From: the human T2T-CHM13v2.0 reference genome, Homo sapiens
DNA length: 64,000 bases
NCBI RefSeq assembly: GCF_009914755.1
Contig: NC_060938.1
Strand: one strand, 5' to 3'
Shown: positions 5,541 through 8,769 of the stretch, one piece after another
Numbering within the stretch: position 1 is the first letter of the stretch
Layout of the letters: the number at the start of each line of letters is the position of its first letter
Position numbers and translations under genes: made by a program
Notes under the pieces: generated by a model
What the model was told of the DNA's origin: nothing
Seen by the model: the letters and a program-made list of their open reading frames with translations, nothing else
Databases searched by the model: none

Positions 5541-5676
5541 CGCCGCTCTCGGGGTCCGCGAAGGTGGCTCAGTTCGGGCGCTCCAGTCTCGACGTTCCCG
5601 GGGTAGAGAGCAACGTCCGGGGACGAACGGGACGGGTGCGCCCAGCGGCCGGGGCTGCGCTGGGCGAGGCAAGCGG
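5541..5676 (-). ncRNA. MIR1247: pre-miR-1247 hairpin (5p arm 5616..5637, 3p arm 5580..5603)
   Basis: The reverse complement of 5616-5637 is ACCCGUCCCGUUCGUCCCCGGA and of 5580-5603 is CCCCGGGAACGUCGAGACUGGAGC, which I recognise as mature miR-1247-5p/-3p. The two arms are complementary. Confidence 0.9.
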
Positions 5677-6619
5677 CGAGAGGGGAGCGCTCCGGCGTTC
5701 AGGCAACAGCTACCCCTAGTGGGAGAGCCGCCCGGGGCCGGCGCCGCCCCGCGCCCGCTGCCCCGCGCCCCACGCCCGTGGCGCCCCGCGCCCGGGTCGG
5801 CTGGGGGCGCAGGGCCGGCGCCGCTTTCCCCAGCTCTCCGGTCTCCGGCGCCCGGCGGTAACCCGCCCGCGGGCTCTGCCCTCCGCACCTCTCAGCCCGG
5901 CCCCGGCGGCCGCTGACCCAGGAACCGCGGCGCCCCGCTGGAACGAGATGGGACGGGGCGGGCGCGGCCAGGGCGGCGCGGGCTGGGGCGGCGCGCGGCA
6001 GCCTCGGGCAGCGGCGGGGGGCGCGGAGCGCGGTGTGCGTGGCGGGGCGGTGCGGGGGGCGGCCGTGTGCGAGGCGCGAGTGTGAGCGCGCGCGGGAGGC
6101 GGGCGGGCGGGCTCCGGCAGGCGAGCGGCGCCCGCGGGCGAGCCAGGAAGGCGGCGGGAACGCAAAGTTGCCTCCTCGCTGGCCCGCGTCCTCGGTGGGG
6201 CGGGAGCCGGGGCCACCGAAGCGGCGGCCGCGGACCCGGCCTCCCGCGGCACCTGGGCAGCGGCCCCGCACGAGCGGCAGCGGCGTGGGCGGCGTTGGCG
6301 GCGGCGCGCGGGAAGCGAACCGGAGCTCCGGCGCGGCTCGGCGGCCGCCGGGGAGCTCGGCTCAGGTGCGCGGCGAGGGGGGCGCGGGCCGGAGCCAGGC
6401 GGCGGGGACCAGGGCGGCGCGCAGCGCTCGCGCCAGCTGGAGGACCTCCCCAGCGGACGCCCAGGTCCCTGGTCGGGCTCCCGGTCCCCAGCGGCAGCGG
6501 CTGCCGGAGTCCCCCGCCCCCGAGAGCTGGCTGCGGGGCCCGGGCCCGCCCCCACCGGCCCCAGGCCCGGCCGCTCCGCCCTCCGCCCGCCTGCGCCCGC
6601 CCTCAGCCCAAGATTTCTA

Positions 6620-6750
6620 GGGCATTGGCCGCGCTGCTGGGTGATCCCTCCGGGCTCAAGTTGCAAGGGGGCGGGCCGGGCCGGAGGTGGAGTCTCCCGC
6701 CAATTGAAGCCTCCGCTATAAATTGAACTCCCTGCACTGCTGAAGCCCAG
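6620..6750 (+). promoter_or_regulatory. DIO3 proximal promoter (TATA, CCAAT, GC boxes)
   Basis: TATAAA 6717-6722, CCAAT 6700-6704, inverted ATTGG 6624-6628, GC box GGGGGCGGG 6667-6675. Confidence 0.85.
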
Positions 6751-7665
6751 ATGCCTCGCCAGGCCACGTCGCGGTTGGTGGTCGGAGAGGGCGAGGGGTC
6801 CCAGGGGGCTTCGGGGCCTGCAGCCACCATGCTCCGCTCCCTGCTGCTTCACTCCTTGAGGCTCTGCGCCCAGACCGCCTCGTGCCTCGTGCTCTTCCCG
6901 CGCTTCCTCGGCACGGCCTTCATGCTCTGGCTTCTCGATTTCTTGTGTATCCGCAAGCATTTCCTGGGCCGCCGCCGCCGGGGGCAGCCCGAGCCCGAAG
7001 TGGAGCTCAACAGTGAAGGCGAGGAGGTGCCTCCCGATGACCCGCCCATCTGCGTGTCCGACGACAACCGCCTGTGCACCCTGGCGTCGCTCAAGGCGGT
7101 GTGGCATGGCCAGAAGTTGGATTTCTTCAAGCAGGCGCACGAGGGCGGTCCGGCGCCCAACTCCGAGGTGGTTCTGCCCGACGGCTTCCAGAGCCAGCAC
7201 ATCCTCGACTACGCGCAAGGGAACCGCCCGCTGGTTCTCAATTTCGGCAGCTGCACCTGACCACCGTTCATGGCGCGCATGAGCGCCTTCCAGCGCCTGG
7301 TCACTAAGTACCAGCGCGACGTCGACTTCCTCATCATCTACATCGAGGAAGCGCACCCCTCCGACGGCTGGGTCACCACGGACTCTCCCTACATCATCCC
7401 ACAGCACCGGAGCCTGGAGGACCGGGTCAGCGCAGCGAGGGTACTGCAGCAAGGTGCACCCGGCTGCGCTCTGGTCCTCGACACCATGGCCAACTCCAGC
7501 AGCTCGGCCTATGGCGCCTACTTCGAGCGTCTCTATGTCATCCAGAGTGGCACTATTATGTACCAGGGCGGCCGTGGCCCCGACGGCTACCAGGTCTCTG
7601 AGCTGCGCACTTGGTTGGAACGCTATGATGAGCAACTGCACGGCGCTCGGCCCCGGAGGGTGTAA
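6751..7665 (+). CDS. DIO3: Type 3 iodothyronine deiodinase, a single-exon selenoprotein. 304 aa from ATG 6751 or 278 aa from ATG 6829; the in-frame TGA 7258-7260 is Sec170 (Sec144 in the short form).
   Basis: ORFs 6751..7260 and 7270..7665 are in the same frame, joined by TGA-CCA-CCG-TTC. The merged protein has an N-terminal TM segment ([22 protein letters not shown]) and the deiodinase motifs [30 protein letters not shown] and [10 protein letters not shown]. It ends at TAA 7663-7665, with a SECIS and AATAAA downstream. Confidence 0.99.
7258..7260 (+). other. DIO3: UGA selenocysteine codon (catalytic Sec)
   Basis: TGA falls exactly at the catalytic position of the SCTUPPF motif, and coding sequence continues in frame for 134 more codons. 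Confidence 0.97.
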
Positions 7666-8231
7666 ACATCCAACGGACAATTGACTGAACTTGGTGGGCT
7701 GGGCCTTCGAGCCTTCGAAGCCCACGTGCAAGCGCCTCAAACCAAGTCACGCTTGGCGAGGCCCCAGTGACACTGATGTGCTGAGCCACCATTTCAGACT
7801 GAGTCTGCACCCTCAGCCACATGAACAATCTCCCCTACCTCCCTGGGACTCTGCTTCTGTAACTGTCTCATTCACACCTGCCTGGCTCACTGGAAATCCT
7901 CTTTTGAGCGCGGGATATGGCTTGCCCTTGTCCGTGTGCCCCCAGGACTTTGCCTCTACAGCATTTTCTTACACCCCCTCCCCAGCGTGCCCTCAGCCAA
8001 GTGCTTTGGCCCGGTGCTTCCCGCAGCTGCACAGAGACCTTGGCCACGCCCGCGCGCCCTGAGCGCAGCTGGGTTCCAGGAGACTCTCAGCTCAGCTGAG
8101 CTAGTTGCCTGGCACCCACCTGTCGCGCGCGGAGAGGGGGTTCCCTGTTGCTTTTGTGTCTGTTTCCTGTCCCTGGTAGGGGAAGTGATGTCGTGGATGG
8201 GGAGGGGTGGGCAGGGTAGTTTCCCCCGCTT

Positions 8232-8335
8232 GTTTTGGGTGCACAGGAGCCCCACTGCTGATGACGAACTATCTCTAACTGGTCTTGACCACGAGCTAGT
8301 TCTGAATTGCAGGGGCCTCAAAGCAGCACCTAAAC
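8232..8335 (+). promoter_or_regulatory. SECIS element (form 2) in the DIO3 3'UTR
   Basis: Core ATGAC 8261-8265 / TGAA 8303-8306 (tandem G.A quartet). Helix II GAACTATCTC 8266-8275 / GAGCTAGTTC 8293-8302 (9 of 10 pairs). Unpaired AA 8277-8278. Apical ministem TGGT(C)..(G)ACCA 8280-8291. Helix I CCC-A-CTGC / GCAG-GGG. Basal stem TTTGGGTGC 8234-8242 / GCACCTAAA 8326-8334. Confidence 0.95.
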
Positions 8336-8681
8336 CTTGAGGGGGAGGGTGCTCTGGGTTTCCGTGAGGTAACCACCTTAAATGGGAGGGAAGTTGGGGT
8401 GTCTGCTTTGGGACCAGAGGAAGATAGCTTGAGAGGCATTGGCGAGGTTCGCAGCGCCCCAGGGAGAGAGAAAAAGCTGAGACTCCTGGGGAATGACGTT
8501 GGGGTGATGGAGTCCGGGGAAAGAGAGGTGGGGGGAGAGCCTGAGGTCCCCAAGTGAGGGGAGTCCTAGGCAGAGCTGCTGATTGTGGGGCTGGGAGGTG
8601 GAGGGCCCCTGATTCGAAGGCCATTTGGTGAGTGTTTTGCTGGAAATATTTCCTGTATATAAACTTCTTTCAATCTACAAT

Positions 8682-8687
8682 AATAAA
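8682..8687 (+). terminator. DIO3 polyadenylation signal AATAAA
   Basis: AATAAA with an upstream TGTA (8654-8657) and a downstream T/GT-rich tract (8703-8740). Confidence 0.85.
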
Positions 8688-8769
8688 GGCTTGAGGTAAA
8701 CTGCTTTCTGGTTGCCTTTGGTCCCTTTATTTTCTTTTCCCTCTGAATAGCGGCAGGAATTAAACACAA

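What the first reader, a model, noticed from the sequence alone, without database searches (positions are those of the whole stretch)
6751..8335. Stop-codon recoding system: in-frame UGA read as selenocysteine, directed by a 3'UTR SECIS about 1 kb away
Seen in sequence: two ORFs in one frame separated only by TGA-CCA-CCG-TTC, with the TGA at the catalytic position of NFGSCT-x-PPF. About 1,000 nt downstream, before AATAAA, is a hairpin with the AUGA/GA non-Watson-Crick core, a 10-bp helix II, unpaired AA and an apical ministem. Established: eukaryotic Sec insertion uses SECIS, SECISBP2, eEFSec and tRNA[Ser]Sec, and deiodinases are selenoenzymes. A naive ORF caller misses this gene. It is the central biological system of the window, but it is known (DIO3), not novel.
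Basis: partly seen in the sequence, partly recalled or inferred. Interest (0 to 1): 0.85.

Follow-up and report, generated by a model that had tools for sequence, protein, structure and literature searches.

The report
DIO3 selenocysteine UGA and its SECIS

Summary

- **Reading frame.** One frame runs from ATG 6751 to TAA 7663-7665. Its only internal stop is TGA 7258-7260, which is codon 170.
- **Protein family.** The two pieces match consecutive parts of the deiodinase Pfam profile, positions 1-113 and 115-237. The TGA falls at position 114. The pieces also flank residue 57 of the mouse Dio3 crystal chain.
- **Coding signal.** The codon-position GC pattern is the same on both sides of the TGA and disappears in the 3'UTR.
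- **Paralogues.** Human DIO1 and DIO2 carry TGA-C in the same motif. Each has a SECIS_1 hit in its 3'UTR.
- **Homologues.** Of 85 database homologues, 37 end right at the Sec column and 46 skip it. One (platypus) has Cys there, and none has any other residue.
- **SECIS.** Rfam SECIS_1 hits 8253-8314 on the + strand at 35.4 bits, against a gathering score of 35. It is the only hit in the gene. It has the AUGA/UGAA core, a 10-position helix II with 9 pairs and one U·C mismatch, an unpaired AA and a ministem, so it is type 2.
- **Literature.** Published reporter assays already tested this SECIS (PMC2761289).

Verdict: already known, low interest.

The parts
6700..6704 (+). CCAAT motif upstream of the gene
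   Evidence: Motif position. A promoter role is inferred, not tested.
6717..6722 (+). TATAAA motif 32 nt upstream of the annotated transcript start (6749)
   Evidence: Motif position, transcript start from the RefSeq annotation supplied. A promoter role is inferred.
6749..8706 (+). DIO3 transcript, a single exon (intronless)
   Evidence: RefSeq rows supplied. The Pfam profile matches positions 1-237 in one uninterrupted genomic stretch. PMC3316567 states that all detected Dio3 genes are intronless.
6751..6753 (+). Annotated start codon (ATG1). It lies 2 nt from the annotated transcript start, in a weak context (C at -3, C at +4).
   Evidence: and the annotation. An in-frame TGA at 6724-6726 closes the frame upstream.
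6829..6831 (+). Second in-frame ATG (codon 27) in the context GCCACC-ATG-C. Possible main initiation site.
   Evidence: Non-mammalian and several mammalian protein models begin at this Met. The codon-position GC pattern starts here. Actual use is not tested.
6751..7257 (+). Coding piece 1 (169 codons). It holds the N-terminal hydrophobic stretch and the first half of the deiodinase domain, ending in NFGSCT.
   Evidence: Pfam PF00837, E 3.7e-49, profile positions 1-113. Matches 4tr3_A residues 6-56.
7258..7260 (+). In-frame TGA, codon 170, read as selenocysteine (Sec170). The next base is C.
   Evidence: It is the uncovered Pfam position 114 and chain residue 57 of 4tr3. PMC10895443 names SeC170 in NP_001353.4 and says the crystal has Cys at 170.
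7261..7662 (+). Coding piece 2 (134 codons), the second half of the deiodinase domain.
   Evidence: Pfam PF00837, E 2.8e-68, profile positions 115-237. Matches 4tr3_A residues 58-190, E 2.8e-87. GC1/2/3 is 0.63/0.46/0.81, compared with 0.66/0.42/0.88 before the TGA.
7663..7665 (+). True stop codon, TAA
   Evidence: and the annotation.
8253..8314 (+). SECIS element, type 2 (with ministem)
   Evidence: Rfam RF00031 at 35.4 bits against a gathering score of 35, full-length match. Fold z is -2.64. PMC2761289 classes Dio3 among the type 2 elements and tested it in a reporter.
8261..8264 (+). AUGA, the 5' side of the SECIS core
   Evidence: The sheared G·A/A·G pairs with 8304-8305 are inferred from the family model.
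8266..8275 (+). Helix II, 5' strand. It pairs with 8293-8302: 9 Watson-Crick pairs and one U8272·C8296 mismatch.
8277..8278 (+). Unpaired AA in the internal loop UAAC (8276-8279)
8280..8291 (+). Apical ministem (8280-8283 paired with 8288-8291) with loop CUUG
   Evidence: 4 pairs in the MFE fold, 3 pairs in the Rfam alignment.
8293..8302 (+). Helix II, 3' strand
8303..8306 (+). UGAA, the 3' side of the SECIS core (GA at 8304-8305)
8682..8687 (+). AATAAA polyadenylation signal, 19 nt before the annotated transcript end
   Evidence: It is the only AATAAA, and there is no ATTAAA, between 8300 and 8720. Transcript end from the annotation.

Best explanation
The region is the intronless human gene DIO3 (type 3 iodothyronine deiodinase). 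Its mRNA has one in-frame UGA, codon 170 at window 7258-7260. This codon is decoded as selenocysteine, the catalytic residue of the thioredoxin-fold active site NFGSCT-U-PPF.

Decoding is directed by a type 2 SECIS hairpin in the 3'UTR (8253-8314), about 1.0 kb downstream of the UGA and 588 nt after the true TAA stop.

Shown here:
- The frame is continuous and coding on both sides of the UGA.
- The UGA is at the Sec/Cys position of the family.
- The SECIS hairpin is present.
- DIO1 and DIO2 have the same arrangement.

Inferred from established knowledge, not tested here: the kink-turn core (AUGA/UGAA) binds SECISBP2, and possibly SECISBP2L. This recruits eEFSec carrying Sec-tRNA[Ser]Sec to the ribosome paused at the UGA, in competition with release factor. 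Termination at the UGA, giving a truncated product, is the competing outcome.
For: - Frame and stops.
- Pfam PF00837: piece 1 matches profile 1-113 (E 3.7e-49) and piece 2 matches 115-237 (E 2.8e-68), so the TGA is exactly the missing position 114.
- A six-frame genome search gives one continuous match over positions 1-237 with '1 TGA' inside, 414.7 bits.
- PDB: piece 1 ends at residue 56 and piece 2 starts at residue 58 of mouse Dio3 chain 4tr3_A. PMC10895443 says the crystal has Cys at position 170 in place of Sec (passages).
- Codon-position GC is 0.66/0.42/0.88 before and 0.63/0.46/0.81 after the TGA, against 0.60/0.59/0.61 in the 3'UTR.
- The 134 codons after the TGA are open; 585 of 20,000 mononucleotide shuffles are as open.
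- Human DIO1 and DIO2 have TGA followed by C in the same NFGS[CA]T-TGA-P[PS]F motif. They have SECIS_1 hits of 38.5 and 38.2 bits on the sense strand near the end of their 3'UTRs.
- Of 85 homologous protein models, 37 end at the Sec column (36 directly before it, 1 one residue earlier). Another 46 carry sequence on both sides but gap the column. One (platypus, P0055) has Cys, and 1 is otherwise truncated.
- SECIS_1 hit at 35.4 bits, full length, the only Rfam hit in 6700-8750 at E <= 1. Fold z is -2.5 to -2.6.
- The annotation of the same genome lists SECISBP2, EEFSEC, TRU-TCA1-1, SEPSECS, PSTK and SEPHS2.
- Literature, passages read:
  - PMC2761289: all 26 human SECIS elements were cloned behind a luciferase UGA reporter. 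The Dio3 element is one extreme of a ~4,900-fold range in HepG2 cells, with SelS, one of the six weak elements, at the other. Dio3 is not among the five type 1 elements.
  - PMC3316567: Dio3 is a selenoprotein found in all vertebrates and is always intronless. Mammalian UGA-to-SECIS distances range from 207 to 5,207 nt.
  - PMC12936836: SECISBP2L is reported to bind the Dio2 and Dio3 SECIS elements.
Against: - The SECIS_1 score exceeds Rfam's cut-off by only 0.4 bits.
- The whole-genome run of the model listed only 4 matches at E <= 0.001 (41.2-44.4 bits). None of the three deiodinase SECIS elements was among them, so the model alone would not single this hairpin out genome-wide. That run scored only 129 of 50,830 candidates.
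- Helix II has one mismatch.
- No covariation test of the hairpin was possible, because no other vertebrate DNA was available.
- The protein database returned no orthologue with the Sec position written as U. Conservation of the TGA itself in orthologues is therefore inferred from 37 models that stop there, and from papers, not read from orthologous DNA.
- No selenium incorporation, ribosome footprint or mutant data were produced here.
- No stable structure follows the UGA (z -0.66). This is not required for the mechanism.
Confidence: 0.97

Rival explanations
1. The TGA is a genuine stop. The gene makes only a 169-aa truncated protein, or is a pseudogene or nonsense allele, and the downstream open frame is a leftover.
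For: A mechanical ORF caller reports two ORFs. 37 of 85 public protein models of homologues are written this way. Termination at UGA does compete with Sec insertion in all selenoprotein mRNAs (established knowledge).
Against: - The piece after the TGA scores higher against the deiodinase profile (230 bits) than the piece before it (168 bits).
- That piece keeps the coding GC periodicity.
- It is conserved from human to fish.
- The stop is at the same motif position in DIO1 and DIO2 and is Cys in the platypus model.
- A SECIS sits in the 3'UTR.
Confidence: 0.01
2. The UGA is read through without the SECIS, by a near-cognate tRNA (Trp, Arg or Cys), helped by the weak UGA-C context. The hairpin would then be incidental.
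For: The base after the TGA is C in all three human deiodinase genes. From recalled knowledge, UGA-C is the leakiest termination context in mammals. The SECIS_1 score is marginal.
Against: - All three paralogues keep a SECIS_1-matching hairpin on the sense strand in the 3'UTR, although the three hairpins differ in sequence.
- The Dio3 element drives UGA recoding in a heterologous luciferase reporter (PMC2761289).
- The residue is described as the catalytic selenocysteine (PMC10895443).
Confidence: 0.01
3. Two separate proteins are made, one from 6751-7260 and one from the ATG at 7270.
For: An ATG lies three codons after the TGA, and ORF 7270-7665 is listed.
Against: - The Pfam domain and the crystal chain run continuously across the junction with exactly one residue missing.
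- The three codons between the TGA and that ATG (P-P-F) are part of the conserved motif in DIO1, DIO2 and the platypus model.
- Internal initiation 500 nt into a eukaryotic mRNA has no support here.
Confidence: 0.005

Closest known systems
Human DIO3 (RefSeq NM_001362.4 / NP_001353.4), type 3 iodothyronine deiodinase
   Same: It is this gene: same coordinates as the supplied annotation (CDS 6751-7665, single exon 6749-8706), Sec at codon 170, SECIS in the 3'UTR.
   Different: Nothing differs. The only open point is which of the two in-frame ATGs (6751 or 6829) is mainly used.
Mouse Dio3 catalytic domain, PDB 4TR3/4TR4
   Same: Piece 2 aligns over 133 residues with 3 visible non-identical positions. 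Piece 1 aligns over 51 residues. The TGA corresponds to chain residue 57.
   Different: According to PMC10895443, the crystallised protein carries Cys instead of Sec and lacks the N-terminal membrane part.
Human paralogues DIO1 (chr1) and DIO2 (chr14)
   Same: TGA-C in the same active-site motif. SECIS_1 hit on the sense strand near the 3' end of the mRNA.
   Different: - Both have introns, and the Pfam matches are split over exons.
- The DIO1 SECIS has an open apical loop (type 1) (PMC2761289).
- The DIO2 SECIS lies about 5 kb from its UGA, by the locus coordinates.
- DIO2 has a second in-frame TGA near its end (PMC3316567).
Rfam RF00031 SECIS_1 (eukaryotic selenocysteine insertion sequence)
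   Same: Full-length match with the AUGA, AA and GA landmarks and both helices.
   Different: The score is only just above the gathering cut-off. There is one U·C mismatch in helix II, and the 3' core reads UGAA where the family consensus shows UGAU.

Membership tests
Eukaryotic selenoprotein gene (SECIS-dependent UGA recoding) | In-frame UGA with protein-coding conservation on both sides | tested here: met
   Pfam halves 1-113 and 115-237. GC periodicity on both sides. Homologues conserved on both sides.
Eukaryotic selenoprotein gene (SECIS-dependent UGA recoding) | The UGA aligns with Sec (UGA) or Cys in homologues | tested here: met
   TGA at the same motif position in DIO1 and DIO2. Cys in platypus model P0055, and 37 of 85 models stop there.
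Eukaryotic selenoprotein gene (SECIS-dependent UGA recoding) | SECIS stem-loop in the 3'UTR on the coding strand, with an AUGA...AA...GA core | tested here: met
   RF00031 at 35.4 bits against a cut-off of 35, at 8253-8314 (+). Landmarks located.
Eukaryotic selenoprotein gene (SECIS-dependent UGA recoding) | UGA-to-SECIS spacing above the reported minimum (51-111 nt) and within the mammalian range (207-5,207 nt) | tested here: met
   About 1,000 nt. The limits come from PMC3316567.
Eukaryotic selenoprotein gene (SECIS-dependent UGA recoding) | Covariation supporting the SECIS helices across orthologues | not testable with these tools
   No other vertebrate genomes are in the collections. Only the three human paralogous elements could be folded.
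Eukaryotic selenoprotein gene (SECIS-dependent UGA recoding) | Trans-acting machinery encoded in the genome (tRNA-Sec, eEFSec, SECISBP2, SEPSECS, PSTK, SEPHS2) | tested here: met
   All six are listed in the RefSeq gene table of this assembly. This was read from the annotation only, not re-derived.
Eukaryotic selenoprotein gene (SECIS-dependent UGA recoding) | Selenium actually incorporated, and recoding dependent on the SECIS core | not testable with these tools
   Bench work. PMC2761289 reports reporter activity for the Dio3 SECIS (passages). I read no core-mutant data for this element.
Iodothyronine deiodinase family (Pfam PF00837), type 3 | Full-length match to the T4_deiodinase profile above the curated cut-off | tested here: met
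   167.6 and 230.2 bits for the two pieces, against a cut-off of 27. 414.7 bits for the genomic stretch.
Iodothyronine deiodinase family (Pfam PF00837), type 3 | Closest to type 3 rather than type 1 or type 2 | tested here: met
   E 2.8e-87 to mouse type III, against 3.7e-29 to a type II chain. The best database hits are named thyroxine 5-deiodinase or IOD3.
Iodothyronine deiodinase family (Pfam PF00837), type 3 | Intronless gene, a feature of all Dio3 genes according to PMC3316567 | tested here: met
   One uninterrupted profile match. Single exon in the annotation.
Type 2 (form 2) SECIS | Additional ministem above the AA-containing internal loop | tested here: met
   A 4-bp ministem, 8280-8283 paired with 8288-8291, in the MFE and centroid folds. 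PMC2761289 lists only Gpx1, Gpx2, SelN, Dio1 and SelV as type 1.

The most novel reading that the evidence does not exclude
The annotated 304-codon reading frame may overstate the main protein.

ATG1 (6751) lies only 2 nt from the annotated transcript start and is in a poor context. ATG2 (6829) sits in GCCACC-ATG. The 26 extra codons look non-coding in composition: GC1/2/3 is 0.73/0.69/0.81, like the upstream DNA at 0.71/0.74/0.77. They are also less conserved, at 19-22 of 26 identical, than the next 143 residues, which reach up to 139 of 142 in the same models. Non-mammalian models start at the second Met.

The main product may therefore start at codon 27, with Sec at residue 144, unless transcripts that start further upstream are used. 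From memory, public protein records already flag this uncertainty, so even this reading is not new.
Probability: 0.5. Interest if true: 0.1.

Novelty: already known. Interest (0 to 1): 0.05.

Why it matters
It matters as a check on the scan, not as a discovery. A reader without tools correctly found a recoded stop codon and its distant RNA signal. The biology is textbook: DIO3 inactivates thyroid hormone and needs selenocysteine for catalysis.

One practical point stands out. Of the 85 homologous protein models that the word search returned, 83 either stop at the UGA or cut it out as a false intron. Automatic annotation therefore still mishandles this gene family in many genomes. The search is limited by length and returned no entries written with U, so this is not a census of public annotation.

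Tried and rejected
- **Structure after the UGA.** I folded 7258-7347 to look for a stem-loop directly after the UGA, like a recoding-stimulating element. It is no more stable than shuffles: z -0.66, and 50 of 200 shuffles fold as well. Rejected.
- **Second SECIS or other RNA family.** A permissive scan of 6700-8750 (E <= 1) found only the one SECIS.
- **Genome-wide SECIS_1 search**. It gave 4 matches at E <= 0.001, none in a deiodinase gene, and scored 129 of 50,830 candidates. It is not usable as a ranking of this element.
- **674-aa ORF on the opposite strand** (5716-7740), which is longer than either DIO3 piece. It has no Pfam family at E <= 0.01 and lies in DNA of 64-85% GC. I take it for a composition artefact.
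- **Bacterial promoter/terminator scan** of 6400-6900. It found nothing and is not a suitable tool for a human promoter.
- **tRNA scan** of the window: 0 genes. The tRNA-Sec gene is on chr19 according to the annotation.
- **Orthologues written with U at the Sec position.** Two word searches returned none. Conservation of the codon in orthologues therefore rests on where the models end, on one Cys model and on papers.
- **Literature.**
  - A search for 'DIO3 + intronless + nonsense-mediated decay + selenoprotein' found 0 papers. The idea that an intronless selenoprotein mRNA escapes decay at its UGA is left as my inference only.
  - A search for '278 amino acids' / '304 amino acids' together with DIO3 found no paper holding those phrases among the 12 listed.
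  - PMC6032375 held none of six gene-structure terms.
- **Supplements.** The supplementary alignments and SECIS figures of PMC3316567 may show which mammalian lineage has Cys in Dio3. In the passages I read, the paper says only that Dio3 was converted to Cys in some mammalian lineage. The link to platypus comes from P0055 alone.
Full report
**What is in the sequence.** The + strand between 6751 and 7665 is one reading frame with two stops only: TGA at 7258-7260 and TAA at 7663-7665. A mechanical ORF list splits it into 6751-7260 (169 aa, ending NFGSCT) and 7270-7665 (131 aa), both in the same frame. Only TGA-CCA-CCG-TTC lies between the T codon and the next ATG.

**Is the frame coding on both sides of the TGA?** Four lines of evidence say yes.
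- The piece before the TGA matches Pfam PF00837 (iodothyronine deiodinase) at profile positions 1-113 (E 3.7e-49). The piece after it matches positions 115-237 (E 2.8e-68). The TGA therefore stands for the single missing position, 114.
- A six-frame search of the whole assembly gives one uninterrupted match to positions 1-237 at this place, with '1 TGA' inside, at 414.7 bits.
- Against solved structures, the first piece ends at residue 56 and the second begins at residue 58 of mouse Dio3 chain 4tr3_A, with E 7e-26 and 2.8e-87. PMC10895443 (passages) says this crystal has Cys at position 170 in place of the selenocysteine. It names SeC170 of NP_001353.4 as the catalytic residue. Codon 170 counted from 6751 is the TGA.
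- GC content by codon position is 0.66/0.42/0.88 for 6829-7257 and 0.63/0.46/0.81 for 7261-7662. It flattens to 0.60/0.59/0.61 in the 3'UTR. An open frame of 134 codons after the TGA occurs in 585 of 20,000 mononucleotide shuffles.

**Homologues.** The other two human deiodinase genes carry TGA followed by C at the same place in the motif NFGS[C/A]T-TGA-P[P/S]F.

Two word searches of the protein database returned 85 distinct proteins: one with the N-terminal piece, and one with a pangolin model found by the first search. I aligned all 85 with the human frame, with X at the TGA.
- 37 end at the Sec column. Of these, 36 end with the residue directly before it and 1 ends one residue earlier. They come from mammals, turtles, lizards, birds, a salamander, bowfin and teleosts.
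- 46 carry sequence on both sides but have a gap over the column. Most look like false introns drawn around the stop. One of these is a DIO2 and one is a frame-shifted rabbit model.
- 1 is truncated earlier.
- 1, a platypus model (P0055), reads NFGSCT-C-PPF straight through.

No model has any residue other than Cys at the column. Residues 196-290 are 58-65 of 95 identical between human and models from platypus, turtle, coelacanth, gar, frog and medaka (50 of 94 for one unnamed EukProt model), and 88-94 of 95 in two other mammals.

PMC3316567 (passages) reports Dio3 as a selenoprotein in all vertebrates examined. It says all Dio3 genes are intronless, and that Dio3 was converted to a Cys form in some mammalian lineage.

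Limits: the database returned no entry written with U, and no orthologous DNA was available. The TGA codon in orthologues is therefore inferred, not read.

**The hairpin.** Rfam's SECIS_1 model matches 8253-8314 (+) over its full length at 35.4 bits, against a gathering score of 35. It is one of only two gathering-level Rfam hits in the 64-kb window; the other is mir-1247. It is the only hit at E <= 1 in 6700-8750, with E 7.9e-05.

Landmarks:
- AUGA at 8261-8264.
- Helix II, 8266-8275 paired with 8293-8302: nine Watson-Crick pairs and one U8272·C8296 mismatch.
- Unpaired UAAC at 8276-8279, with AA at 8277-8278.
- A four-pair ministem, 8280-8283 paired with 8288-8291, closed by CUUG.
- UGAA at 8303-8306.

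The MFE and centroid structures agree. They are more stable than shuffles: z -2.51 for 8240-8330 (1 of 200 shuffles as stable) and z -2.64 for the element alone (2 of 200).

The AUGA begins 1,003 nt after the U of the UGA. The element starts 588 nt after the TAA and ends 368 nt before the only AATAAA, at 8682. The annotated transcript ends at 8706.

The ministem makes it a type 2 element. This agrees with PMC2761289, which lists only Gpx1, Gpx2, SelN, Dio1 and SelV as type 1. The DIO1 and DIO2 3'UTRs each hold one SECIS_1 hit on the sense strand near the transcript end, at 38.5 and 38.2 bits. Folded alone, DIO1 shows an open apical loop and DIO2 a ministem.

**Weak points.**
- The SECIS_1 score clears the cut-off by 0.4 bits.
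- A genome-wide run of the model listed 4 matches at E <= 0.001 (41.2-44.4 bits), and no deiodinase element was among them. It scored only 129 of 50,830 candidates.
- The hairpin is convincing because it lies on the right strand, in the 3'UTR of a gene whose only internal stop is at the family's catalytic Sec/Cys position, and because both paralogues show the same arrangement.
- Covariation could not be tested.

**Mechanism.** What is shown is the cis anatomy above. What is inferred from established knowledge is the following. The AUGA/UGAA core forms a kink-turn with tandem sheared G·A pairs. SECISBP2 binds it, and eEFSec brings Sec-tRNA[Ser]Sec to the UGA in competition with release factors.
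- The genes SECISBP2, EEFSEC, TRU-TCA1-1, SEPSECS, PSTK and SEPHS2 are in this assembly's gene table.
- PMC2761289 cloned all 26 human SECIS elements behind a luciferase UGA reporter. It names the Dio3 and SelS reporters as the two ends of a ~4,900-fold range in HepG2 cells, and SelS is in its weak group.
- PMC12936836 notes a report that SECISBP2L binds the Dio2 and Dio3 SECIS elements.
- No extra structure follows the UGA.
- Because the gene has a single exon, no exon junction lies downstream of the UGA. I infer that the mRNA should escape junction-dependent nonsense-mediated decay. A literature search for this point found nothing.

**Rivals.**
- A true stop or pseudogene is excluded by the conservation and coding signal after the TGA.
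- Two separate proteins are excluded because the domain and the motif run across the junction.
- SECIS-independent read-through is not excluded by sequence alone. It is unlikely given the conserved SECIS in all three paralogues and the published reporter data.

**Surroundings and both strands.**
- Upstream lie a CCAAT motif (6700) and TATAAA (6717), 32 nt before the annotated transcript start.
- The gene sits at the edge of a very GC-rich block, 0.83-0.85 GC over 5700-6599.
- On the minus strand, a 674-aa ORF (5716-7740) overlaps the gene. It has no Pfam match and I take it for a GC artefact.
- mir-1247 is confirmed at 5573-5646 (-) at 106.8 bits.

**Start codon.** The annotated ATG (6751) is 2 nt from the annotated transcript start and has C at -3. 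The next in-frame ATG (6829) is in GCCACC-ATG-C. The 26 codons between them lack the coding GC pattern. They are less conserved than the rest: 19-22 of 26 identical, against up to 139 of 142. Non-mammalian models and some mammalian ones begin at the second Met. Which start is used cannot be decided here. From memory, public protein records already note this uncertainty.

**Verdict.** This is human DIO3 with its Sec170 UGA and type 2 SECIS, already annotated and experimentally studied. Novelty: already known. Interest: low.

Noticed in passing
window 6751-6831: The annotated start codon is 2 nt from the annotated transcript start and in a weak context. The second in-frame ATG (6829) has a consensus GCCACC-ATG context. 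The 26 codons between them look non-coding in composition and are less conserved. The main protein may start at codon 27.
   Followed up: partly
window 5716-7740 (-): A 674-aa open frame on the opposite strand overlaps DIO3 and is longer than either DIO3 piece. It is rich in R/P/A/G, has no Pfam match, and lies in DNA of 64-85% GC. It is probably a composition artefact that a naive ORF caller would prefer to the real gene.
   Followed up: partly
proteins P0001-P0085: Of the 85 homologous protein models returned, 37 stop at the Sec codon and 46 cut it out. Only one, the platypus model with Cys, reads through. None is written with U. The returned set is limited by length and by source, so this is not a census.
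   Followed up: yes
P0055 (UniRef name: Ornithorhynchus anatinus): The platypus DIO3 model has Cys in place of Sec in an otherwise intact motif (NFGSCT-C-PPF). PMC3316567 mentions a Sec-to-Cys conversion of Dio3 in some mammalian lineage, but I did not see the lineage named in the passages I read.
   Followed up: partly
L002 (G000 chr14:74411483-74415109, - strand): DIO2 has a second in-frame TGA seven codons before its last stop. RefSeq lists two CDS ends 24 nt apart (74412971 and 74412947), which fits isoforms that stop at or read through that second TGA.
   Followed up: partly
L007 580-3330 (G000 chr1:53789000-53794100, DIO1 3'UTR): Nine sub-threshold matches to the SRP RNA model (45.6-67.6 bits, cut-off 70) on both strands, with overlapping mir-1268 and mir-3135 sub-threshold hits. 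This is the pattern expected of Alu repeats in the DIO1 3'UTR. I took one look only.
   Followed up: no
window 5573-5646 (-): The mir-1247 precursor matches Rfam RF03271 at 106.8 bits over the full model, in agreement with the annotation.
   Followed up: no
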